Positions 4,408-62,097 of a stretch of DNA of 64,000 bases are shown here, piece by piece (position 1 is the stretch's first letter; each line of letters begins with the position of its first letter). The notes beneath the pieces were generated by a model. It saw only the letters and a program-made list of their open reading frames with translations. It was not told where the DNA came from and ran no database searches. The position numbers and the translations under genes were made by a program. The stretch is taken from positions 53,521 through 117,520 of the forward strand of contig JAFUKG010000032.1 in assembly GCA_017467865.1 (NCBI GenBank), written 5' to 3'. Source of the DNA: Clostridia bacterium (GTDB lineage: Bacteria; Bacillota; Clostridia; Oscillospirales; SIG627).

Positions 4408-4557
4408 AATTAAATCATTCCTTTCGGTTGTGCTTAACGCACCAAAGTTCAAATGAGAAGCAACAATATAAGTATGAATTTCGCTTCAGAGAAATTGTCC
4501 TTACCTATTACCTCTTCACTTTTACCTATTCACTGTCTGAAAACGTGTTTTTAAATT

Positions 4558-5262
4558 TTAGGGGAGCATTCTTTCGGTTACAATTCTGTGAGATACAAGG
4601 CAGGGACGGAAAGCTTCTGCATAATCCTTGTGGCACTGAAGTCCATAGTACTCGGAGAGAATTCTGCACTCCTTAGTATAATCAACGCCGTCGTGGTCTC
4701 TGAGCCATATTTCCTGAGACTCGTGGCAGTGAAGCATTTGAAGCTTCTTTTCATAAAATTCTGTGATGTCAACATACTCGGTGGGGTTAAAGTTGATACC
4801 TGCGGCTGTTGCCATATAATAGATAGGAGTAATCTTATCTGTTGCAGGATACTTTGTGAAGTAATGAGGGCAGGTTGCCATGAATGCTGCATCGAAAGCG
4901 AGCTTAGATGCTGCAACGTGGTCGCACATATAGTCCTCGGGGTCGGGAATGATGAGAAGGTCGGGGTCTGCCTGACGGATTATGTCAACAAGGATATCCT
5001 TCTGCTCCTTGCTCTGATAGTAGGAACAAAGGTCGCCTATATCTGCAGGAAGATATGTAAAGCCTGCCATATCGCAAGACTTCTGTGCTTCTGCACGGCG
5101 GATATCTCTGAGCTCATCGGGCATTATAACCATATGACCCATGTTACCGTTATTGATAGTGCAGACAAAAACCTCGTCGCCTCTTGCCTTGCACTTGAGA
5201 AGTGTGCCTGCACACATAAATTCCATATCGTCGGGATGCGCTGTAATAGCTAAAACTCTCAT
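4558..5262 (-). CDS. PIG-L/LmbE family deacetylase
   Basis: MRVLAITAHPDDMEF carries the AHPDD motif, and the 234-aa length fits the family. Confidence 0.8.
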   Translation of the reverse strand: MRVLAITAHPDDMEFMCAGTLLKCKARGDEVFVCTINNGNMGHMVIMPDELRDIRRAEAQKSCDMAGFTYLPADIGDLCSYYQSKEQKDILVDIIRQADPDLLIIPDPEDYMCDHVAASKLAFDAAFMATCPHYFTKYPATDKITPIYYMATAAGINFNPTEYVDITEFYEKKLQMLHCHESQEIWLRDHDGVDYTKECRILSEYYGLQCHKDYAEAFRPCLVSHRIVTERMLP

Positions 5263-41214: not shown

Positions 41215-43652
41215 AAAAAATTCTCACCCTTGTCCTTGCTCTTTTCACCCTTTTTGCTCTTGCATCCTGCGGGCCCAAGGAAGAAAAGAAGCCCGAAAAG
41301 GTAGCACTTGAAAACGTTTATATGGCAAAGAAGCTCCCCACCCCCGACGGTGTAGACCTCTATAATATTATGATGTCGGGTGACAGAGCCTTCTTCAACG
41401 GCTCGAAGGAGGTTAAAACCACCGATGATGACGGCAACGAAATCTCCGACTGGTACGATTGCGTATATACTGCCAACGCCGACCTGACAGATATCCGCGA
41501 GCTTTACACCTTTAAGGGTGAGTGGAACTACGACGAGACAACAGGCACCGATACGGGCAAATACCTCAACGGCTATAACGCAGGTGCCAACGGTAAGCTC
41601 TGGCTCTCCTTTACGGAATATAAGAGCTGGTACGACAGTGACACCGAACAGTATAACTATGAGGAGAATACTGTCTTGAAGCTCCTCGAAGAGGACGGAA
41701 GCTTTTCAAGAGAAATAAGCATCACCCCTCTTCTTAAATCACGCCCCGAGTTTGCAGGGGATAGCTATTCCACCTATATGGGTCAGCTTGCCGAAACCTC
41801 CGACGGAAAGCTCGTTATGCTCATCGGTAACAAATATATCTTCGTTATCGACAAGGACGCGAACCCATTAAGCCTTACCGAGCTCCCTCAGAATAAATCC
41901 CCGAACGACGTTGCCCTCATTAATGACGATACCCTCAGACTTTCCGCTTGGGATTGGTCGGGAGAGGAAAGCAAGGTAGAGATTATCGACTTCTCTATTT
42001 CAAAGGCAGAATTCAAAACCATTGACACCATCTCCTCCTACCACAGCGTGCAGATGGCTGACGACGGAACGGTTTACATAAACGATTACAGCACTATATC
42101 AAGATACGATTTCGATAAAAAAGAAGAAGTACCCCTTCTTGACTTTATTAACTCCGATATCAACTCCGACAGACTTTCAAGTTTCTACCCCGCAGGCAAC
42201 GACGAGTTCTATACCTTTGAATACGATGCCGATTGGGAAGGCCGTCAGCTTCTTCACCTTACCCCCGCCGCAAAGGGCGAGGTGGTTGAAAAGTATATTA
42301 TCACCCTTGCAGCAAATGCCCTTGACTCTCAGCTTAAGAGCATGATTATCGACTATAACCGCTCATCAAAGGATTACAGAATTGCAGTTAAGGTTTACGG
42401 TTGGGAAGAAGCGGACACCGAGCGCTTTGACCTCGACCTTCTTTCTGGTGCCACCCCCGATATTGTTTGTATTGACAGCTCACTCAGTCTTACAAAGTAC
42501 GCCACTAAGGGAATATTTGCCGACCTCGGTGCTTACCTTGACTCCGATGACGAGATAAATAGAGATACACTTCTCCCTAACGTTCTGAAGGCTTGTGAGA
42601 CAAACGGCAAGATTTACAGCCTTCCCGTTAACTTTGCTGTAAGAAGCCTTGTTACAAAGAAGAGTCTTGTAGGGGATAAGACCTCTCTTACCTTTGACGA
42701 CGTGAAGTCTATCCTTTCTGTTTATCCCGGCGCTGTCTTTATGAGAGAGACAGACCGCGAACAGCTTATGACGGGATTTTTACCTGTGATACTTGAAGAA
42801 TATATCGACTATAAGAACGGAAAATCCAACTTCTCCGACGGAACATTTAAGTCCTTCCTTGAATTTGCAAAAGCCTTCCCCGCAAAGATTGACTACGATA
42901 CCTACTATAACGATATCGACTGGGAAGCATATGAGAACGACTTTAAGGAAAACCGAGTTATCGCAAACTCTGTTTACCTTTCAAGCTTCAATTCTATTGA
43001 ATGGCAGGAAGAACAGTTCGGTGAAGAGATTGTCTGCATCGGCTATCCCACGAATAAAGGCGAACCCCACGCCCTCAACCTCAATACTCAGTTTGCTATT
43101 GGCGCAAAGTCTGTTTATAAAGAGCAGGCTTGGGACTTTATGAAGATGCTTCTCGCCAAGGAATACCAGACCGAGTACACTTGGACCTTCCCTATAAATA
43201 AAGAAGCCTTTGAAGAAATGAAGGAAAAGGAAATTACAAGTACTAAGTCTCGCTACGAAAAAGAGGCTATGGAGGACGATGAATACTTCGATGATGACTT
43301 CATCATGGACGACGATATGGTAGTTATGCCCCGTGAAGAGGTTGCAGAGGTTGTTGTTGAAACCTCAGAGGAGCTTGTAGCATCTGATAAGGTAGTAACA
43401 CTGCCCGAAACACCAATCGCGCCCGTCGAGGATGAAGAATTCACCTCTGAAAAGCTTGAGAGAATGCTCGGATATATCGACAGTATCTATAATATCGCCA
43501 CAACTACCACCCGTCTTGCCCGCTACAACGACCCCGTCCTCGACATAATCACCTCCGACGTCGGCGCCTACTTCGACTCCAAGAAATCCGCCGAGGAAAC
43601 CTGCAAGACGATAGAGAGTAGGGTGAACCTTTATCTCGCCGAAAACAGTTAA
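41211..43652 (+). CDS. Large (813 aa) lipoprotein: N-terminal extension of unknown fold, family-1 extracellular solute-binding domain, and an acidic C-terminal region
   Basis: The lipobox is LFALASCG. The central part (ITLAANALDSQLKSMIIDYNRSSKDYRIAVKVYGWEE..GATPDIVCIDS..NGKIYSLPVNFAV) is SBP_bac_1-like. About 340 N-terminal residues are rich in D/N/Y/W beta-type sequence. The start overlaps the upstream stop (ATGA). Confidence 0.75.
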   Translation: MKKILTLVLALFTLFALASCGPKEEKKPEKVALENVYMAKKLPTPDGVDLYNIMMSGDRAFFNGSKEVKTTDDDGNEISDWYDCVYTANADLTDIRELYTFKGEWNYDETTGTDTGKYLNGYNAGANGKLWLSFTEYKSWYDSDTEQYNYEENTVLKLLEEDGSFSREISITPLLKSRPEFAGDSYSTYMGQLAETSDGKLVMLIGNKYIFVIDKDANPLSLTELPQNKSPNDVALINDDTLRLSAWDWSGEESKVEIIDFSISKAEFKTIDTISSYHSVQMADDGTVYINDYSTISRYDFDKKEEVPLLDFINSDINSDRLSSFYPAGNDEFYTFEYDADWEGRQLLHLTPAAKGEVVEKYIITLAANALDSQLKSMIIDYNRSSKDYRIAVKVYGWEEADTERFDLDLLSGATPDIVCIDSSLSLTKYATKGIFADLGAYLDSDDEINRDTLLPNVLKACETNGKIYSLPVNFAVRSLVTKKSLVGDKTSLTFDDVKSILSVYPGAVFMRETDREQLMTGFLPVILEEYIDYKNGKSNFSDGTFKSFLEFAKAFPAKIDYDTYYNDIDWEAYENDFKENRVIANSVYLSSFNSIEWQEEQFGEEIVCIGYPTNKGEPHALNLNTQFAIGAKSVYKEQAWDFMKMLLAKEYQTEYTWTFPINKEAFEEMKEKEITSTKSRYEKEAMEDDEYFDDDFIMDDDMVVMPREEVAEVVVETSEELVASDKVVTLPETPIAPVEDEEFTSEKLERMLGYIDSIYNIATTTTRLARYNDPVLDIITSDVGAYFDSKKSAEETCKTIESRVNLYLAENS

Positions 43653-43654
43653 CC

Positions 43655-44000
43655 GTTTCTTAGAAATTTCGTGTAATACTTCGTCAACTTCAAAAACCCC
43701 GTCGTCACCTTACGGACAGTAAGGTTTCCTCGGGGTTTTCTTGTTTCCTTGTCTTACGCAAAATTTCGTCGAAACTGTGATAGTGTAAATTTGTTATTCG
43801 TCTTTTTCCGTTCTGCTTCGCTACTTGTTCGACTCGGCTTCGTTGACTTACATTTAGTAAGCCTTCCTCGCCTCGCTCACGTGCACTCGCATAACGAAAA
43901 AATACTTTGAAACTGTGATAGTATAAGGAAAAAGAGCCGTTATCGGCTCTTTTTCCTCGTCTTACGCAAAATTTCGTCGAAACTATGTTTCTTAGAAATT
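43655..44000. repeat. Direct-repeat-structured non-coding segment
   Basis: The 14-mer gtttcttagaaatt occurs at 43655-43668 and 43987-44000. A 33-mer cctYgtcttacgcaaaatttcgtcgaaactRtg occurs at 43747-43779 and 43955-43987 (31/33 identical), each time directly after a terminator-like hairpin. gaaactgtgatagtRtaa occurs at 43771-43788 and 43909-43926. Confidence 0.8.
43692..43745 (+). terminator. Intrinsic terminator ending the ABC/MFP operon
   Basis: aaaaaccccg(43692-43701)..cggggtttt(43731-43739), with an inner hairpin accttac-ggacag-taaggt, followed by ttttcttgttt. Confidence 0.7.
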
Positions 44001-44137
44001 AAAAATTAATGAAGATTTTGCTTTAGCAAAATCAACAATAATTTTCACGAAGTGAAACATCATTTGCCGTAAGGCAACATCATTTCGGAGAACATCATTT
44101 GTGTTTTGCACAGCATCGTTTGCGTCAGCAAAGCTTA

Positions 44138-44166
44138 TTGCAAATTCCGACACATTATGCTATAAT
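44138..44166 (+). promoter_or_regulatory. SigA-type promoter for the small-peptide leader
   Basis: TTGCAA at 44138-44143, a 17-nt spacer, then TATAAT at 44161-44166. Confidence 0.6.
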
Positions 44167-44172
44167 ACCCAC

Positions 44173-44234
44173 GGCTACCATAAACGGCGGCGGTTCAGCC
44201 CTCAAATGAGAGGGCGTGTGCCCTCTTATTTTTT
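44173..44234 (+). promoter_or_regulatory. Leader with mutually exclusive hairpins (antiterminator/terminator) upstream of the 23-aa ORF; alternatively a ~60-nt sRNA
   Basis: Hairpin A is gccctc(44198-44203)-aaatga-gagggc(44210-44215). Hairpin B is gagggc(44210-44215)-gtgt-gccctc(44220-44225) followed by ttatttttt(44226-44234). Both use the same 44210-44215 strand. The RBS AAGGGGG starts at 44235. Confidence 0.55.
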
Positions 44235-44248
44235 AAGGGGGTGATGCT

Positions 44249-44320
44249 ATGGATTATTTTATCGCCCTTGCGTTAATACTTATCGCAGCGACAGGATATA
44301 TTGTAAGCATAAAAAAATAA
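44249..44320 (+). CDS. Small hydrophobic peptide (23 aa), candidate type I toxin-like or membrane sORF
   Basis: This ORF is not in the track. The ATG at 44249 lies 7 nt after AAGGGGG. It encodes MDYFIALALILIAATGYIVSIKK, which is a single TM-like helix with a C-terminal KK. A terminator follows directly. Confidence 0.45.
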   Translation: MDYFIALALILIAATGYIVSIKK

Positions 44321-44397
44321 CCGCCCCGGTCCAAAGGTTGCGGTTATTTTTTATTAACTGATACCAAGGGCTGAACCGTTGCCGGTAGCCTTTTTCT
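44311..44397 (-). ncRNA. Predicted ~85-nt antisense RNA overlapping the 3' end and terminator of the 23-aa ORF
   Basis: On the minus strand there is an extended -10, TGTTATAAT (plus 44404-44412), a 16-nt spacer and the -35 TTGCTT (plus 44426-44431). The transcript would start near 44397 and end at the bidirectional terminator. Its 5' part, GGCTACCGGCAACGGTTCAGCCCT, is a GCAA-tetraloop hairpin. Confidence 0.35.
44318..44352. terminator. Bidirectional intrinsic terminator shared by the sORF (+) and the predicted antisense RNA (-)
   Basis: The stem is taaccgc(44318-44324)/gcggtta(44340-44346). T-runs flank it on both strands: tttttt at 44347-44352 on plus, and the A-run at 44311-44317 on plus reads as a T-run on minus. 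Confidence 0.65.
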
Positions 44398-44550
44398 ATA
44401 TCTATTATAACACGGATTTTGAAAAAAGCAAGAGAATTTTTTTCGGAAGAAAAATTATAATTAATTGTGAATTTCGGCAAAGCCGAAATTGTCCACAATT
44501 CATAATTCTTCACTCATCATTCTTCATTAAATAAAGCACCAAGCGGTGCT

Positions 44551-44862
44551 TTATTTTTCTGCCATATTCTTAATCAAATTCTCTACTATTTCAAGCTGTT
44601 TATCGTCGAGCTTTTTCATATATTCGGTTATCTTTTTTAATCTCGATGGATTTGTACTGTCGGTGTCGAAAAATTCACAAGGGGTTATTCCAAGATAGTC
44701 ACAGATATAAAAGAGACCCGACAAAGAGGGCAGCGCCCCGCCCGTTTCAATATGGTTAATATAGTTTTCGTTTTGACCGATTGACAAACTCATCTCTCTT
44801 GCAGATACGTTTTTCTTTGTTCTAAGTGTTGCCAAGCGAAGTCCTACTTTTTCTTTTTCCAC
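44551..44862 (-). CDS. XRE-family helix-turn-helix transcriptional regulator
   Basis: LRLATLRTKKNVSAREMSLSIGQNENYINHIETG is an HTH_3 motif. I prefer GTG 44862 (after aaaggcggtga) over the track's TTG 44916. Confidence 0.8.
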   Translation of the reverse strand: MEKEKVGLRLATLRTKKNVSAREMSLSIGQNENYINHIETGGALPSLSGLFYICDYLGITPCEFFDTDSTNPSRLKKITEYMKKLDDKQLEIVENLIKNMAEK

Positions 44863-44998
44863 TATATTATCACCGCCTTTACAATATTCTACCTTAGAGA
44901 ACGTCTTATAATACAAGATTAGAAGTCTTAAAGGTGTTGCAATACAAGTTGATTTGTTGTATAATGTGAAAAATGCGACTTTAAAAGTAGGAGAAGTT

Positions 44999-45481
44999 AT
45001 GGAAATAATAAAGGAAAAGACCTGCTCGTTTTTCGGTCACAGAAAAATTGAAGTTACAGAGGGGTTGAAAAAGAGGCTTTTGGAGGCGGTTGAAGAGCTG
45101 ATTTTAAAAAGCGGAGTGGACACCTTTCTGTTTGGCAGCAGAAGTGATTTCGATAAATTATCTCTTGAAACGGTAACTCTTTTAAAAGAAAAATATCCTC
45201 ACGTAAAAAGAATTTACGTGAGGGCGGAATTTCCATATATTAACGAAAGCTACACGGCGTATCTTATGAAAAAGTACGATTTTACATATTATCCCGAAAA
45301 AATCTTAAATTCGGGAAAGGCAGTTTACGTAGAACGAAATCGGGAAATGATAGACAAAAGTAATTTTTGCATAGTATTTTATGACGAACACTACACACCG
45401 ACAAAGAAAACCGTCAGCGGAACGGCAACGGCTTATCTTTATGCGCTCTACAAAAAGCTGAAGGTAATAAATTTATTTTAA
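44999..45481 (+). CDS. SLOG-fold (DUF1273/YpsA-like) family protein
   Basis: The start is the ATG at 44999, after the RBS AGGAGAAG. KTCSFFGHRKI followed by GVDTFLFGSRSDFD resembles the CxFTGHR...G-G motifs that I associate with DUF1273/SLOG proteins. This family call is from memory only. Confidence 0.55.
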   Translation: MEIIKEKTCSFFGHRKIEVTEGLKKRLLEAVEELILKSGVDTFLFGSRSDFDKLSLETVTLLKEKYPHVKRIYVRAEFPYINESYTAYLMKKYDFTYYPEKILNSGKAVYVERNREMIDKSNFCIVFYDEHYTPTKKTVSGTATAYLYALYKKLKVINLF

Positions 45482-45596
45482 ATAAAAAAGTTTTCTCTCA
45501 AGTTACTTGAATAAAATATAAATTTATGCTAAAATAACAAAAAACTTAGGACAAGCAAAACTTGTCCTTTTTGGCGTTTGCAGAGTTGGAGTAGGA

Positions 45597-48500
45597 ATGA
45601 ATATTTTACTGAGTGCATTAAGAAAAGAAAGTGAATATAAAAAGCTGGCTGAAAGTGCAACGAAGGGCGGGAGATACCTTGTAACGGGCATTTCCGACAG
45701 TCTTTACGCTCTTAGTGTTGCCTCTCTTTTTAAAGATACGAAAAGAAAGATAGTGGCAATTTTCCCAGATGAAAAGGATGCCATATCCTTGTCGGGAGAG
45801 CTTCAGAGCTTTGGGGTAAGGTGTCTTACTCTGCCATCCCGTGACTTCTTTTTCGGGAAGGTAGACGCCAGAGGACACGATTTCGATTATCTGAGACTGT
45901 CGGCGCTCTCTCAGATAGCCGACGGTGAGTGGGATATTCTCGCCACCACCGCCGAGGCATTTTGTCAGACCACCGTGCCCCGTGATACACTTATCTCTTC
46001 CCGCCTTGAAATAAAGTCGGGGGACTTTACCGATATTGAAATTCTTTCAAAGAAGCTTTCTGATATGGGCTATAAAAGATGTGAGCTGGTTGACGGAAAG
46101 GGACAGTTTTCAAAGAGGGGCGGTATCGTTGACGTATACCCCACTCAGCTTGACTACCCCGTGAGAATAGAATTTTTCGGAGACGAGATAGACTCGGTTT
46201 CCGCCTTTGATATAATGACCCAAAGGAGAATTGACACTCTCGCATCGGTGAGAGTTCTCCCTGCCTTTGAGATATACGCCGATGAGGTGAAGAAGAATGA
46301 ACTTGCCGAAATTTTCCTTGAACGCTCAAAGCGCGAGAAGAGGGAAGAGGTAAAACAAGCACTTCTGCGCGAAAGAGAAAAGCTCATGAGCACGGGGGCG
46401 GTAGAGTTTGAGGTGTACACCGACGTAATCTACCCCGAATGCGAGACCGCCTACGACTATCTTGACAAGGATACAACTCTCTGCCTTTTCGACTCCCACA
46501 AAATAAAGGAACGTATGAACGGCGTTATGTCACTTTTGGAGGAAACCGTTGAGGGACTTTTAGAGAGCCGTCCCGAGCTTTGGGCTATGGGAGGTTCTAT
46601 GGGGCAGAACGGCTGGGACTACCTTGAAGAAATAACCGAGAATAACACCACTCTCGTCTTTAACAGCTTTACTACGGGCGAGAGCATAAGATACAACGAT
46701 ATTTTCTCCTTTGTTACAAGAAAAACAGTTTCTATGGCACAGAACGCCGACCTGTTTTTCGATGACGTGGAGCATTTTGTCTCCCGCGGATACAGCGTTG
46801 TAATTCTCAGCGCAAACTCCATATCATCGAATAACCTTATCGACTCCTTGAACGCAAGAGGTATTAAGGCACACCTTTCTGAAATAGACGGCGAAGAGGT
46901 AGAGGGCAGTGTTGCGGTAGTGTCGGTTATGACGGGTGATAAGACTGCAGTTACCTTGAAGGAGGGCTTCGAGCTTGTAAAGAGCAATTTCGTCCTTCTG
47001 ACTGACCGTCCCGGTGACGAGGAGAGACGCGCTTCAAGACGCCACAGAGTAAAATATAAGAGCTCCTCAAAGGAGCGCATAATGTCATATAACGACCTTG
47101 AGGTTGGGGACTACGTAGTGCACGTAAACCACGGAATAGGTATCTATCAAGGCATAAAGAGTATGATAGTCGATAACGTACAAAAGGACTATCTTGTCAT
47201 AAAGTATGGGGGAGACGACGTCTTGTATCTGCCCTGCAACAATCTTGACTCTATCTCAAAGTATATCGGAGGGGGAGCAGAGGGCTCTGTCAAGCTTAAC
47301 CGCCTTGGCTCTGCCGAGTGGAAAAAGGCGAAGAGCCGTGCAAAATCGGCGGCAAGCGACATTGCCAAGGAGCTTATAAAGCTCTACTCCGCCCGCCGTT
47401 CAATAAAGGGACATGCCTTTTCTCCCGATACCCCTTGGCAGGCAGAGTTCGAGGGTGCCTTTGAGTACGACGAAACCGATGGACAGCTTATGGCGGTAGA
47501 GGAGATAAAGCGTGACATGGAAAGCGAAGTGCCCATGGACAGACTCCTTTGCGGTGACGTAGGCTTCGGTAAAACCGAGGTGGCGCTGAGAGGACTCTTC
47601 AAGTGCGTTATGGACTCCATGCAAGCGGCAGTCCTTGCCCCCACAACAGTTCTTGCATGGCAGCACTACAACACCATTCTGACCCGTTTCAGAGGCTTCC
47701 CCGTAAACGTGGCTCTTCTTTCGCGCTTTTCTACCCCCAAGGAGATAAAAAAAGCCCTTGAGGGCGTGAAGAACGGAAGCGTTGATATAGTGGTAGGTAC
47801 TCACCGCCTTTTACAAAAGGACGTGGAGTTCAAGCGTCTCGGCTTCCTTGTGGTTGACGAGGAGCAACGCTTTGGCGTAACACACAAAGAAAAGCTTAAG
47901 GAAATGGCAAAGGGAGTGGACGTGCTTACCCTTACCGCAACGCCTATTCCCAGAACTCTCAATATGGCTCTCAGCGGTATCAGGGATATGTCACTTCTCG
48001 AAGAAGCCCCCGGTGACCGCTTCCCCGTACAGACCTACGTTCTTGAATTTGACGAAGCCACGATTTATGAAGCCATTCGCCGTGAGGTAAGGCGTGGTGG
48101 ACAGGTGTTCTATCTTATCAATAACACCGAGCTTCTCGACGGAAGAGCGAAAAGGATAATGGACAACGTTGACGGCGTAACTGTTGCCACCGCCCACGGA
48201 CACCTTGACCGTGATGAGCTTTCCGAGATATGGCGTGATATGTACGACGGAAAAATAGACGTTCTTGTGTGCACCACCATTATCGAGACGGGTATCGACG
48301 TACCTAACGCCAACACCCTTATTATCGAGAATGCCGACCACTACGGACTAAGTCAGCTTCATCAGATAAGAGGACGTGTGGGACGAAGCAACCGAAAGGC
48401 GTGGGCGTATCTTACCTACCGACCTCACAAGGTACTCACCGAGGTTGCCGAAAAGAGACTTTCCGCCATTAAAGAATACACCGAGTTCGGCTCGGGCTTC

Positions 48501-49121
48501 AAGATAGCTATGCGTGACCTCGAAATAAGAGGTGCAGGAAACGTTCTGGGCTCGGAGCAGCACGGACATATGGACAGCGTGGGCTACGACCTTTATATCA
48601 GAATGCTTGACGAGGCAATGAAGCTTGAAAGAGGGGAGACGGTAGAGGAAAGCGTAGAGGAAGCCGACACCCTTATCGACTTATCTCTTGACGCCTATAT
48701 TCCCAAAAGCTACGTCACAAGCGAGAAGCTGAGAATTGATATTTACAAGAAGATAGCAGAGCTTGAAAGCGAGGATGACGTCTCCGAGCTTATCGACGAG
48801 CTCATTGACCGCTTCGGCGAGCCCTCAAAGAGCGTGACAAATCTTGTGGCAATATCAAGGCTGAGAAAGAGACTGAGGAAGCTTGGCGTTTTAAAGACCG
48901 TTCAAAACGGAGAGGCGGTTTATATCTATACCGACCTGACACACTTGAAGCCTGCCGAAGCTCTTTGTATGTTCTATCAGAATAATAAGCTCACCTTCCG
49001 CTCTTCCGCAAAGCCCTATTTCGTCTTAAAGACCGATAAGAAAAATACCCTTGTAGACCTTGAAATATTCACCGACGGCTTTGAAGAGATAATAAGACGC
49101 TTTGAGGAAAGTGAAAAATGA
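45597..49121 (+). CDS. mfd: Transcription-repair coupling factor Mfd
   Basis: 1174 aa. The CarD-like RID is DYVVHVNHGIGIYQG. The helicase motifs are GDVGFGKTEVA, DEEQRFGV and TATPIPRT, and the TRG motif region is QLHQIRGRVGRS. Confidence 0.97.
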   Translation: MNILLSALRKESEYKKLAESATKGGRYLVTGISDSLYALSVASLFKDTKRKIVAIFPDEKDAISLSGELQSFGVRCLTLPSRDFFFGKVDARGHDFDYLRLSALSQIADGEWDILATTAEAFCQTTVPRDTLISSRLEIKSGDFTDIEILSKKLSDMGYKRCELVDGKGQFSKRGGIVDVYPTQLDYPVRIEFFGDEIDSVSAFDIMTQRRIDTLASVRVLPAFEIYADEVKKNELAEIFLERSKREKREEVKQALLREREKLMSTGAVEFEVYTDVIYPECETAYDYLDKDTTLCLFDSHKIKERMNGVMSLLEETVEGLLESRPELWAMGGSMGQNGWDYLEEITENNTTLVFNSFTTGESIRYNDIFSFVTRKTVSMAQNADLFFDDVEHFVSRGYSVVILSANSISSNNLIDSLNARGIKAHLSEIDGEEVEGSVAVVSVMTGDKTAVTLKEGFELVKSNFVLLTDRPGDEERRASRRHRVKYKSSSKERIMSYNDLEVGDYVVHVNHGIGIYQGIKSMIVDNVQKDYLVIKYGGDDVLYLPCNNLDSISKYIGGGAEGSVKLNRLGSAEWKKAKSRAKSAASDIAKELIKLYSARRSIKGHAFSPDTPWQAEFEGAFEYDETDGQLMAVEEIKRDMESEVPMDRLLCGDVGFGKTEVALRGLFKCVMDSMQAAVLAPTTVLAWQHYNTILTRFRGFPVNVALLSRFSTPKEIKKALEGVKNGSVDIVVGTHRLLQKDVEFKRLGFLVVDEEQRFGVTHKEKLKEMAKGVDVLTLTATPIPRTLNMALSGIRDMSLLEEAPGDRFPVQTYVLEFDEATIYEAIRREVRRGGQVFYLINNTELLDGRAKRIMDNVDGVTVATAHGHLDRDELSEIWRDMYDGKIDVLVCTTIIETGIDVPNANTLIIENADHYGLSQLHQIRGRVGRSNRKAWAYLTYRPHKVLTEVAEKRLSAIKEYTEFGSGFKIAMRDLEIRGAGNVLGSEQHGHMDSVGYDLYIRMLDEAMKLERGETVEESVEEADTLIDLSLDAYIPKSYVTSEKLRIDIYKKIAELESEDDVSELIDELIDRFGEPSKSVTNLVAISRLRKRLRKLGVLKTVQNGEAVYIYTDLTHLKPAEALCMFYQNNKLTFRSSAKPYFVLKTDKKNTLVDLEIFTDGFEEIIRRFEESEK

Positions 49122-61962: not shown

Positions 61963-62097
61963 GAATGCAGAATTAAGAATGCAGAATGCATTCTTAAAAT
62001 GCAGAATGATGAATGATGAATTGCGGACAATTTTGCTTTGCAAAATTTACAATCAATTTTAATTTCGCTAAAGCGAAATTTTCATTAATTCTTCGTT

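What the first reader, a model, noticed from the sequence alone, without database searches (positions are those of the whole stretch)
44138..44431. Convergent-promoter locus: 23-aa hydrophobic peptide behind a terminator/antiterminator leader, with a 3'-overlapping antisense RNA (type I toxin-antitoxin-like)
On the plus strand, a near-consensus promoter (TTGCAA-17-TATAAT, 44138-44166) drives a ~60-nt leader. In that leader the strand GAGGGC (44210-44215) can pair either upstream (44198-44203) or downstream (44220-44225, followed by TTATTTTTT), giving mutually exclusive antiterminator and terminator hairpins. Directly after the T-run come the RBS AAGGGGG and an ORF for MDYFIALALILIAATGYIVSIKK (44249-44320). 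On the minus strand, an extended -10 promoter (TGTTATAAT, with -35 TTGCTT, 44404-44431) points at the ORF. The two transcripts would share the bidirectional terminator at 44318-44352. The antisense RNA of about 85 nt would therefore overlap the 3' end of the peptide mRNA. Both RNAs begin with a similar hairpin. GGCTACC..GGTTCAGCCCT lies at 44173-44202, and its reverse complement AAGGGCTGAACCGTTGCCGGTAGCC at 44366-44390. These form an inverted repeat flanking the ORF. Established knowledge: short hydrophobic peptides with basic C-termini, structured 5' UTRs that limit translation, and convergent 3'-overlapping antitoxin RNAs define type I TA loci such as txpA/ratA, bsrG/SR4 and fst/RNAII. Assigning this locus to that class is inference. 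The neighbouring XRE and SLOG genes suggest an accessory islet.
Basis: partly seen in the sequence, partly recalled or inferred. Interest (0 to 1): 0.6.

Follow-up and report, generated by a model that had tools for sequence, protein, structure and literature searches.

The report
Candidate small-peptide toxin with antisense RNA
A 260-base insert between core genes of an uncultured rumen Clostridia bacterium carries a tiny membrane-peptide gene facing a small antisense RNA gene; it looks like an undescribed family of RNA-controlled toxin-antitoxin modules, but nothing has been tested in the laboratory.

Summary

Comparison with relatives shows it is a real, repeated genetic module:
- A related MAG (GCA_045595105.1) has one copy at the same site and a second copy elsewhere. 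That second copy's ORF is 72/72 nt identical to the window's, while neighbouring genes are only 83-87% identical.
- A contig from the same sample as the window carries a paralogue. It keeps both promoters, both 5' hairpins and the terminator stems, but encodes a different hydrophobic peptide, MTAYEIFALFLALLGIIVKLLIELINAKK.
- Relatives with the same flanking genes have empty sites at both locations.

There is no match in Rfam, Pfam, NCBIfam, phages, plasmids or viral contigs.

The best reading is a candidate type I toxin-antitoxin family with the layout of pAD1 par or SprA1. The toxin has no PXXXG motif, and an inverted repeat takes the place of par's direct repeats.

- The leader terminator occurs only in the A-type copies.
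- Occlusion of the ribosome-binding site is predicted, but is not beyond a shuffle control.
- XRE-YpsA-Mfd is conserved core synteny, not an accessory islet.

Transcription, toxicity and rescue remain untested.

The parts
44138..44166 (+). Sense (peptide mRNA) promoter TTGCAA-17-TATAAT with TG extension. The predicted transcription start is G44173.
   Evidence: 10/12 matches, TG present. It is conserved in L058 (TTGCAT-17-TATAAT) and L081 (TTGCAA-17-TATAAT). In all three copies the hairpin starts exactly 7 nt after the -10 hexamer, although the 6-nt spacer sequence differs.
44173..44200 (+). 5' hairpin of the sense RNA (GGCUACC-loop-GGUUCAGCC). It is the left arm of the inverted repeat.
   Evidence: I9, I17. 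It is 100% identical in window, L058 and L081.
44198..44203 (+). Element a, GCCCUC. It can pair with b (GAGGGC, the antiterminator state) or with the ribosome-binding site.
44204..44236 (+). Leader hairpin b:c (GAGAGGGC-GUGU-GCCCUCUU, extendable to 12 bp) followed by a U-run. It looks like an intrinsic terminator lying between the promoter and the ribosome-binding site.
   Evidence: (I20). The b:c hairpin is conserved in the B-type paralogue (CAGAGGG...CCCUCUG) but has no U-run there.
44235..44243 (+). Ribosome-binding site AAGGGGGUG, 6-7 nt before the ATG.
   Evidence: It is identical in L005 and L058; the B-type has CAGGGGGAA. Predicted P(unpaired) is 0.00-0.08, but a leader-shuffle control is not significant.
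44249..44320 (+). ORF for the 23-aa peptide MDYFIALALILIAATGYIVSIKK: one hydrophobic stretch and a KK end.
   Evidence: It is 72/72 nt identical in L058. L005 has one synonymous change and V19I. Shuffle probability is about 0.1%.
44312..44352 (.). Bidirectional terminator: 13-bp stem, 15-nt loop, A-run and U-run on either side. It is the only stretch predicted to be shared by the two transcripts.
   Evidence: (I14). The stems are invariant and the loops differ between copies.
44366..44390 (-). 5' hairpin of the antisense RNA (GGCUACCG-GCAA-CGGU-UC-AGCC, then CCUU). It is the right arm of the inverted repeat.
   Evidence: It is identical in L005, L074 and L081, with one loop change in L058.
44391..44397 (-). 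Conserved single-stranded 5' leader AGAAAAA of the predicted antisense RNA. The start is about 44397 and the RNA is about 86 nt long.
   Evidence: It is invariant in all five copies, while the 6 nt between it and the -10 hexamer vary. The start site itself is inferred.
44404..44431 (-). Antisense promoter: TTGCTT, 16 nt, extended -10 TGTTATAAT.
   Evidence: The extended -10 is kept in L005, L058 and L081 (TGTTATAAT) and in L074 (TGATATAAT). The -35 is TTGCTT or TTGATT.
43780..44528 (.). The whole stretch that is absent from the empty site of a relative (L080). It holds duplicated SBP-downstream sequence, repeat element E, the module, and a second E.
   Evidence: In L080, SBP-stop, terminator and TTTCCTCGTCTTCCGCGAAATTTCGTCGAAATTGTG are followed almost at once by the XRE terminator.

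Best explanation
The locus is one copy of a small, multi-copy family of modules found in a narrow clade of uncultured ruminant-gut Clostridia. [quoted passage not shown]

Proposed mechanism:
1. A strong promoter makes an mRNA of about 180 nt for a 23-aa single-helix membrane peptide.
2. The mRNA starts directly with a stable hairpin. Its leader holds two CCCUC elements and one GAGGG element. These can form either a terminator-like hairpin or an antiterminator, and in both states one CCCUC covers the ribosome-binding site. Little peptide should therefore be made from the primary transcript.
3. A convergent promoter makes an antisense RNA of about 86 nt. It consists of 7 unpaired nucleotides, the same hairpin, a linker, and the shared terminator hairpin.
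4. The two RNAs are fully complementary over the 41-46-nt terminator hairpin. Its large loops of 15-18 nt differ between copies and could start a copy-specific kissing complex.
5. Duplex formation would then lead to mRNA decay or lock the mRNA in an inactive state, as in pAD1 par and other Gram-positive systems.

Shown: the sequence elements, their conservation, paralogy with a swapped ORF, multi-copy status, and the insertion polymorphism.

Inferred: both transcripts and their ends, translation of the ORF, toxicity, and what RNA pairing achieves.
For: Anatomy is confirmed.

Conservation:
- The module is 95% identical between species whose flanking genes are 83-87% identical and whose downstream flank is 68% identical.
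- The ORF is 72/72 and 70/72 identical; the 5' hairpin and ribosome-binding site are 100% identical.
- Both extended -10 promoters are kept in 3 (sense) and 5 (antisense) independent sequences, although adjacent spacer bases vary.

Paralogue L081:
- The same ends align at 80-82% identity over 200 and 138 nt; the middle does not align.
- It still has a ribosome-binding site and a hydrophobic 29-aa ORF ending in KK. That ORF is seen on 5 contigs.
- Such an ORF arises in about 0.1% of shuffles of either variable region.

Distribution:
- Two copies in GCA_045595105.1 at different sites.
- Empty sites in relatives at both locations.
- Assembly breaks inside the module.

RNA predictions:
- The terminator overlap gives a perfect duplex of 43-46 bp.
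- The ribosome-binding site is predicted paired in all three mRNAs.
- The two leader states are nearly isoenergetic.

The peptide features match the published definition of type I toxins: under 60 aa, a transmembrane stretch and a charged C-terminus (PMC6563280). [quoted passage not shown]
Against: - No expression or toxicity data exist.
- Synonymous sites are as conserved as the rest of the ORF (0-2 changes), so there is no dN/dS evidence for coding. Recent transfer or gene conversion could explain the identity.
- Occlusion of the ribosome-binding site is not better than in leader-shuffled controls (fraction at or below observed 0.08-0.36).
- Pairing of the antisense 5' domain with the translation start region is not better than shuffles (p = 0.28, 0.54, 0.10).
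- In-silico 5' truncation does not clearly open the ribosome-binding site.
- The peptides match no known toxin family. The two peptide types are not detectably homologous to each other.
- The family was found in only two species-level lineages.
Confidence: 0.55

Rival explanations
1. It is a non-toxic small membrane protein gene, for example a modulator of a transporter or a sensor. An antisense RNA and a structured leader tune its expression, but there is no toxin-antitoxin or addiction behaviour.
For: The same anatomical evidence applies. Many bacterial proteins of 20-30 aa are harmless membrane regulators (general knowledge). No toxin family matches.
Against: - Multi-copy status, empty sites, no fixed protein partner among the neighbours, and exchange of the ORF for an unrelated hydrophobic peptide between the same regulatory ends all fit selfish or accessory modules better than a dedicated regulator.
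- Tight multi-layer repression (a terminator in the leader, a covered ribosome-binding site, an antisense RNA) is typical of toxic products.
Confidence: 0.2
2. The functional products are two convergent, paralogous small RNAs, each made of the shared 5' hairpin plus a terminator. On the plus strand this would be the 64-nt RNA ending at the leader terminator (44173-44236). The ORF would be reached only by read-through and would be secondary or incidental.
For: - The leader hairpin with its U-run is a credible intrinsic terminator.
- The two 5' hairpins are near-identical and are the most conserved parts of the module.
Against: - The B-type paralogue has no U-run after the leader hairpin, yet keeps a ribosome-binding site and a hydrophobic ORF.
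- The ORF and ribosome-binding site are 97-100% conserved.
- Two unrelated ORFs with the same properties at the same position are very unlikely by chance.
Confidence: 0.1
3. It is a non-expressed repeat or miniature mobile element. The 25-nt inverted repeats would be its terminal repeats, and the promoter-like and ORF-like features would be chance.
For: - Inverted repeats flank about 170 bp.
- The module is multi-copy, inserted between core genes, and embedded in other repeats called E and F here.
Against: - Conservation runs beyond the outer ends of the inverted repeats into both promoters, while the interior between the repeats is the variable part. This is the reverse of what a transposable element bounded by terminal repeats would show.
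- No target-site duplication abuts the repeats.
- No copies were found in viral, plasmid or phage collections.
Confidence: 0.05
4. The leader is a ligand- or protein-responsive transcription attenuator. The conserved 5' hairpin would be the sensor, switching between antiterminator and terminator to control a small peptide gene. The same hairpin on the antisense RNA would titrate or share the same factor.
For: - The mutually exclusive a:b and b:c hairpins are nearly isoenergetic in the nascent leader.
- The hairpin's 3' arm overlaps element a by 3 nt.
- The hairpin is 100% conserved, loop included.
Against: - No Rfam family matches.
- The hairpin is small (28 nt) and invariant, so no covariation test is possible.
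- The B-type leader has no terminator.
- This could coexist with the toxin-antitoxin reading rather than replace it.
Confidence: 0.1

Closest known systems
par of Enterococcus faecalis pAD1 (Fst / RNA I - RNA II) and the Fst/Ldr type I toxin-antitoxin family
   Same: - Convergent promoters and a shared bidirectional intrinsic terminator, whose complementary stem-loops give the first contact between the RNAs.
- The antisense RNA does not cover the body of the ORF.
- Intramolecular structure covers the toxin's ribosome-binding site.
- A 5'-terminal helix sits on the toxin mRNA.
- The toxin is a small single-helix peptide with a charged C-terminus.
- Loci occur on chromosomes, often in several copies (PMC7472228, PMC8594479).
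   Different: - There are no direct repeats (DRa/DRb) to give 5' complementarity across the translation start. Instead an inverted repeat gives both RNAs the same 5' hairpin.
- Pairing between the start region and the antisense 5' domain is not above shuffles.
- The toxins lack the PXXXG motif and the conserved tryptophan.
- There is no match to Rfam or Pfam models.
- A-type copies have a terminator-like hairpin inside the leader.
sprA1/SprA1AS and sprA2/SprA2AS of Staphylococcus aureus (PepA1, PepA2)
   Same: - A toxin of about 30 aa or less.
- An antisense RNA overlapping only the 3' end.
- Paralogous copies with presumed cognate specificity (PMC8167048).
   Different: - In S. aureus the functional pairing is between the 5' domains and blocks the ribosome-binding site. 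Here a short CCCUU/UUAAGGG (A-type) or CCCUGAA/UUCAGGG (B-type) match exists, but it is not statistically distinguishable from chance and is poor in L058.
- There is no sequence similarity.
bsrG/SR4 and txpA/RatA of Bacillus subtilis
   Same: - A Gram-positive layout with a convergent, 3'-overlapping antisense RNA.
- A hydrophobic toxin ending in lysines.
- The B-type paralogue starts MTAYE..., like BsrG's MTVYE... (7/26 identical, pairwise E = 0.008; BsrG sequence taken from PMC4342826).
   Different: - In B. subtilis the overlap is 75-120 nt and reaches into the ORF. Here it is 41-46 nt, essentially only the terminator.
- The toxins there are 38-59 aa, against 23-29 aa here.
- The window's A-type peptide shows no similarity.
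- The BsrG resemblance is weak and came from a comparison chosen from memory.
Type I toxin-antitoxin modules of Clostridioides difficile (CD2517.1-RCd8 and others)
   Same: - Class Clostridia.
- Convergent toxin and antitoxin genes.
- A hydrophobic N-terminal part and a lysine-rich C-terminus.
- No homology to toxins of other bacteria (PMC6563280).
   Different: - The C. difficile toxins are 34-59 aa with long complementary regions, and mostly lie in prophages or next to CRISPR arrays.
- Here the peptides are 23-29 aa, the overlap is short, the modules sit between core genes, and no phage copy was found.

Membership tests
Type I toxin-antitoxin system (generic) | Small (<60 aa) hydrophobic protein with a predicted transmembrane stretch and charged C-terminal residues | tested here: met
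   MDYFIALALILIAATGYIVSIKK has mean hydropathy 1.49. The paralogue MTAYEIFALFLALLGIIVKLLIELINAKK has 1.50. The definition is taken from PMC6563280.
Type I toxin-antitoxin system (generic) | A cis-encoded antisense RNA gene with its own promoter and terminator, complementary to the toxin mRNA | tested here: met
   This is met at the sequence level only. An extended -10 promoter, a 5' hairpin and a shared terminator are conserved in 5 sequences. The terminator overlap gives a perfect 43-46-bp duplex. Transcription was not shown.
Type I toxin-antitoxin system (generic) | Toxicity of the peptide on expression, and neutralisation by the antisense RNA | not testable with these tools
   This needs induction experiments.
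Fst/RNAII (par) family | Convergent promoters with a shared bidirectional intrinsic terminator | tested here: met
   (I14).
Fst/RNAII (par) family | Direct repeats DRa/DRb, transcribed in both directions, giving complementarity over the toxin's translation start region | tested here: not met
   No direct repeats were found between the two 5' regions. The repeat present is inverted. The best duplex between the start region and the antisense 5' domain is no better than shuffles.
Fst/RNAII (par) family | Toxin with a PXXXG(C) motif in the hydrophobic domain | tested here: not met
   Neither peptide contains a proline. There is no Pfam or NCBIfam hit.
Fst/RNAII (par) family | Intramolecular 5' stem-loop covering the ribosome-binding site, and a helix at the 5' end of the toxin mRNA | tested here: inconclusive
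   The ribosome-binding site is predicted paired (P unpaired 0.00-0.08), and a 5'-terminal hairpin is present. However, pairing is similar when the leader is shuffled.
Known antitoxin RNA families in Rfam (RNAII/Fst, RatA, SR4-like, Sok, Sib, and others) | Match to the family covariance model | tested here: not met
   With E up to 10 over 43500-45000 on both strands, only chance-level hits to unrelated families appeared. The same holds for L081.
TxpA/BsrG - RatA/SR4 families | Antisense RNA overlapping the 3' part of the ORF by about 75-120 nt; toxin homologous to TxpA or BsrG | tested here: not met
   The overlap is 41-46 nt and covers only the last three codons. The A-type peptide matches no toxin family model and was not compared with BsrG or TxpA directly. 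B-type against BsrG gives 27% identity over 26 aa, pairwise E = 0.008, which is a lead only.
Transcription attenuator or riboswitch leader | Mutually exclusive terminator and antiterminator, plus a conserved sensor domain of a known class | tested here: inconclusive
   The alternative hairpins are real and nearly isoenergetic in A-type copies. The B-type has no U-run, and no known aptamer matches.

The most novel reading that the evidence does not exclude
The two conserved ends act as a portable expression-and-control scaffold, into which unrelated small hydrophobic ORFs are exchanged. Each end consists of a promoter and the identical 5' hairpin, one on each strand. The identical hairpin on both the mRNA and the antisense RNA would be a recognition element for one common trans-acting factor (an RNase, chaperone or other RNA-binding protein). 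Because the hairpin sits at +1 on the mRNA and at +8 on the antisense RNA, that factor would set the stability ratio of the two RNAs. This regulatory logic has not been described for type I toxin-antitoxin systems.
Probability: 0.12. Interest if true: 0.7.

Novelty: new variant of a known kind. Interest (0 to 1): 0.5.

Why it matters
- Type I toxin-antitoxin loci are almost never annotated, because the genes are tiny and poorly conserved. Outside C. difficile, few are known in Clostridia (PMC6563280).
- This would add a family from uncultured rumen Clostridia with very short peptides (23 and 29 aa).
- It would give a natural example of one regulatory RNA scaffold carrying two unrelated peptides. 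That would help in separating RNA determinants from peptide determinants.
- The short peptides could serve as counter-selection markers or membrane-active probes.
- If the shared 5' hairpin proves to be a factor-binding element, it would be a new layer of control for such systems.

Tried and rejected
1. Rfam, with permissive thresholds on the locus and on the paralogue: only chance-level hits.
2. Pfam and NCBIfam on both peptides: nothing. PDB sequences with the 29-aa B-type peptide only: one insignificant hit, E = 0.34.
3. blastn of the locus against phages and plasmids, and tblastn of the peptide against plasmids: nothing meaningful.
4. Pattern scans:
   - The hairpin pattern in viral contigs gave 38 hits, all chance.
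   - The peptide N-terminus in viral contigs gave 2 chance hits.
   - The double-hairpin pattern in JGI metagenomes gave 4 unrelated hits.
   - The antisense-hairpin block in viral contigs gave 0 hits.
   - The peptide N-terminus in GTDB genomes gave 21 hits, of which only the two contigs of GCA_045595105.1 are real. Nine others are Coriobacteriia proteins that start MDYFIALAEERSF, which look like LysR-type regulators.
5. A trans-acting anti-ribosome-binding-site role for the antisense 5' domain, as in SprA1AS: an apparent compensatory change between A- and B-type copies (CCCUU/AAGGG versus CCCUGA/UCAGGG) looked attractive. It failed the shuffle test and is poor in L058.
6. Activation by 5' processing: removing the hairpin and element a raises P(unpaired) of the ribosome-binding site only to 0.15-0.23 in A-type copies and 0.02 in B-type, because a further GCCCUU inside the ORF takes over.
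7. Leader-specific occlusion of the ribosome-binding site: not beyond a leader-shuffle control.
8. Miniature mobile element bounded by the inverted repeats: rejected, because conservation continues outside the repeats and breaks down inside them.
9. Regulation by, or linkage to, the neighbouring XRE gene: XRE-YpsA-Mfd occurs without the module in L006, L079 and L080, and more distant XRE homologues have other neighbours.
10. Literature search for the peptide sequences: no paper holds them.
Full report
**1. Observation**

Plus strand:
- Promoter TTGCAA-17-TATAAT at 44138-44166, preceded by TG.
- A hairpin-forming segment, GGCTACC...GGTTCAGCC, at 44173-44200.
- Three short elements: a = GCCCTC (44198-44203), b = GAGGGC (44210-44215) and c = GCCCTC (44220-44225).
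- TTATTTTTT, then the ribosome-binding site AAGGGGG.
- The ORF 44249-44320, MDYFIALALILIAATGYIVSIKK.

Shared terminator: a 13-bp perfect inverted repeat with a 15-nt loop and flanking A- and T-runs at 44312-44352 (I14).

Minus strand:
- TTGCTT-16-TGTTATAAT at 44431-44404.
- The hairpin GGCTACCGGCAACGGTTCAGCC at 44390-44369, which is the inverted-repeat partner of the leader hairpin (I9 and I17).

Supporting numbers:
- The leader folds with z = -3.5 and the whole mRNA with z = -3.7.
- Among all ATG-started ORFs of 15-45 aa in the window, this is the only strongly hydrophobic one that lies in an intergenic region and has a strong ribosome-binding site.

**2. Genomic setting**

- The window comes from an uncultured Clostridia bacterium of the ruminant gut. 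Identical contigs occur in XIEF21 metagenome assemblies, and the proteins are named "MAG: Clostridia bacterium".
- The gene order is: SBP lipoprotein (813 aa), about 900 nt of intergenic DNA, XRE regulator (103 aa, minus strand), YpsA/DUF1273 (160 aa), Mfd.
- XRE-YpsA(-Mfd) is kept in relatives. It is core synteny, not an accessory islet.
- In a relative whose XRE is 82% identical (L080), the SBP terminator and a 36-nt motif are followed almost directly by the XRE terminator. Window positions about 43780-44528 are therefore an insertion.
- Two further relatives (L006, L079) also lack the module.

**3. Other copies**

Relative MAG GCA_045595105.1 (YpsA 85% identical):
- It has the module at the same site (L005/L061). 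The peptide differs by one synonymous change and V19I.
- A degenerate-pattern scan of GTDB genomes found a second copy in the same MAG on another contig (L058), downstream of an anti-sigma gene.
- The ORF of that second copy is 72/72 nt identical to the window's. A more distant relative has an empty site there (L090).

Identity between the two species:

| Region | Identity |
|---|---|
| mfd, xre, ypsA (nucleotide) | 83-87% |
| Module, window vs L005 | 95% |
| 5' hairpin, ribosome-binding site, ORF (vs L058) | 100% |
| Linker after the terminator | 54% |
| Flank beyond the antisense promoter | 68% |

Logan contigs of a third strain stop inside the antisense hairpin, as expected for a repeat. 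They show the antisense -10 as TGATATAAT.

**4. A paralogue with a different peptide**

Through a homologue of the anti-sigma protein I reached a contig from the same sample as the window (L081). Compared with the window it has:
- The same upstream sequence and TTGCAA-17-TATAAT promoter.
- An identical 31-nt hairpin plus element a.
- A leader that again holds GAGGG and a second CCCUC, but no U-run and an extra hairpin.
- The ribosome-binding site CAGGGGGAA.
- A 29-aa ORF, MTAYEIFALFLALLGIIVKLLIELINAKK.
- A bidirectional terminator with the same stems and a different 18-nt loop.
- The identical antisense hairpin and the promoter TTGCTT...TGTTATAAT.

The ends align at 80-82% identity and the middle does not align. 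The 29-aa sequence is in the protein collection, on 5 contigs. The two peptides are not detectably homologous.

In composition-matched shuffles of either variable region, an ATG ORF of at least 20 aa with a ribosome-binding site and mean hydropathy of at least 1.0 appears in about 0.1% of cases. Two unrelated middles that both carry such an ORF are the strongest evidence that the ORFs are genes. Substitution patterns cannot help, because synonymous sites are conserved too.

**5. RNA analysis**

- In all three mRNAs the minimum-free-energy structure pairs the ribosome-binding site with a CCCUC element: a in the window, c in L058 and L081.
- P(unpaired) of GGGGG is 0.00-0.08.
- The states (b:c + a:RBS) and (a:b + c:RBS) differ by only 2-5 kcal/mol.
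- In the nascent A-type leader, terminator and antiterminator differ by about 2 kcal/mol.

Controls temper this:
- With the leader shuffled, the ribosome-binding site is still mostly paired, because a GCCCUU inside the ORF and the G-rich site itself pair easily.
- In-silico 5' truncation opens the site only slightly.

The antisense RNA folds into a 5' hairpin (GNRA-type loop GCAA, UC bulge) plus the terminator. All pairs are invariant, so covariation gives no information.

The only extensive complementarity between the two RNAs is the terminator hairpin (43-46 bp). Pairing between the antisense 5' domain and the translation start region is not better than shuffles.

**6. Mechanism proposed**

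Shown:
- Two conserved convergent transcription units share a terminator.
- The plus-strand unit carries a conserved small hydrophobic ORF with a strong ribosome-binding site.
- The module is multi-copy, inserted between core genes, and exists with at least two different peptides.

Inferred:
- The peptide is a membrane toxin kept silent by three layers: partial termination in the leader (A-type only), a covered ribosome-binding site, and the antisense RNA.
- The antisense RNA would contact the mRNA through the complementary, copy-specific terminator loops. It would then trigger decay or hold the mRNA inactive, as described for par of pAD1 (PMC7472228).

A further inference concerns RNA stability:
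- The hairpin begins at +1 of the mRNA but at +8 of the antisense RNA, after a conserved AGAAAAA.
- From what I recall of 5'-end-dependent decay in Firmicutes, this predicts a stable mRNA and a labile antisense RNA.
- The start sites themselves are predicted, not measured.

**7. Comparison with known systems**

- The direct repeats DRa/DRb are absent and the toxins lack PXXXG, so it is not a member of that family.
- It is not TxpA/BsrG-like in its overlap.
- The B-type peptide shows a weak resemblance to BsrG (MTxYE start, 7/26 identical, pairwise E = 0.008; BsrG sequence from PMC4342826). This is a lead only.
- No Rfam, Pfam or NCBIfam model matches.
- No copy lies in phage, plasmid or viral collections, and no paper holds the peptide sequences.

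**8. Verdict**

- The type I toxin-antitoxin interpretation is the best-supported reading (about 0.55), but it rests on architecture and comparative genomics alone.
- The leader terminator is specific to one subtype.
- The "accessory islet" argument is wrong, although the module itself is an insertion.
- I rate it a new variant of a known kind. The distinguishing points are the peptide families without known relatives, the identical 5' hairpins on both RNAs created by an inverted repeat, and conserved regulatory ends around exchangeable ORFs.
- Interest is moderate (0.5).

Noticed in passing
window 43995-44137, 44455-44528, and 61965-62095 (minus strand, upstream of rpoB); also L005:225-300, L058 (two copies), L081 (two copies): A repeated intergenic element, called E here. 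It consists of ATTAATGAAG, an AT-rich hairpin (GATTTTGC/GCAAAATC, or GAATTTCGGC/GCCGAAATT with both arms changed), and then short tandem motifs (AACATCATTTG x3 at 44056-44101; ATTCA or CATTCTG repeats elsewhere). It flanks the module on both sides but also occurs without it, so it is an independent repeat family of this lineage. It could provide homology for moving modules.
   Followed up: partly
window 43655-44000: 36-nt direct repeats TTTCCTYGTCTTACGCAAAATTTCGTCGAAACTRTG lie at 43744, 43882 (67% identical) and 43952. A 31-nt repeat lies at 43702 and 43840, and GTTTCTTAGAAATT at 43655 and 43987. The region downstream of the SBP gene has been partly duplicated in tandem next to the insertion. 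L080 has a single copy.
   Followed up: partly
L081:3925-4030 and 4525-4630; L058:2745-2850 (minus strand): A further repeat of about 110 nt, called F here (ATGTGCGGGG...CAGTGAGTCG), lies next to modules in two species. An inner hairpin changes on both sides between copies (GGUG/CACC, GGGU/ACCC, GGUU/GACC). There is no Rfam match. Gene callers place a 32-aa ORF in it. It is absent from the window.
   Followed up: partly
L081:3880-3925: Just upstream of the first F copy lies ...CTTGATACACTTTTCAAAAAATCAAGTTTTTTGAATTAGG. This resembles the outer end of the antisense promoter region of a module. It may be a remnant of a neighbouring module, which would suggest tandem arrays of module-F-E units.
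   Followed up: no
window 44551-49121; L005, L006, L074, L080: XRE (103 aa), YpsA/DUF1273 (SLOG) and Mfd are divergent or adjacent in several related Clostridia, and the XRE protein is well conserved (over 1000 homologues at E <= 1e-15). This looks like a conserved housekeeping neighbourhood whose function is unknown.
   Followed up: partly
L074, L075, L076 (contig ends): Three independent Logan contigs end at exactly the same base inside the antisense hairpin (CTGAACCGTTGCCGGTAGCC). This is consistent with the module being repeated in that genome too.
   Followed up: no
L048-L051, L053, L055, L060, L066, L067: The degenerate pattern for MDYFIALA also hits the N-terminal region of proteins in Atopobiaceae/Coriobacteriales that read MDYFIALAEERSFT..., which look like LysR-type regulators. 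This is a chance match, unrelated to the peptide.
   Followed up: yes
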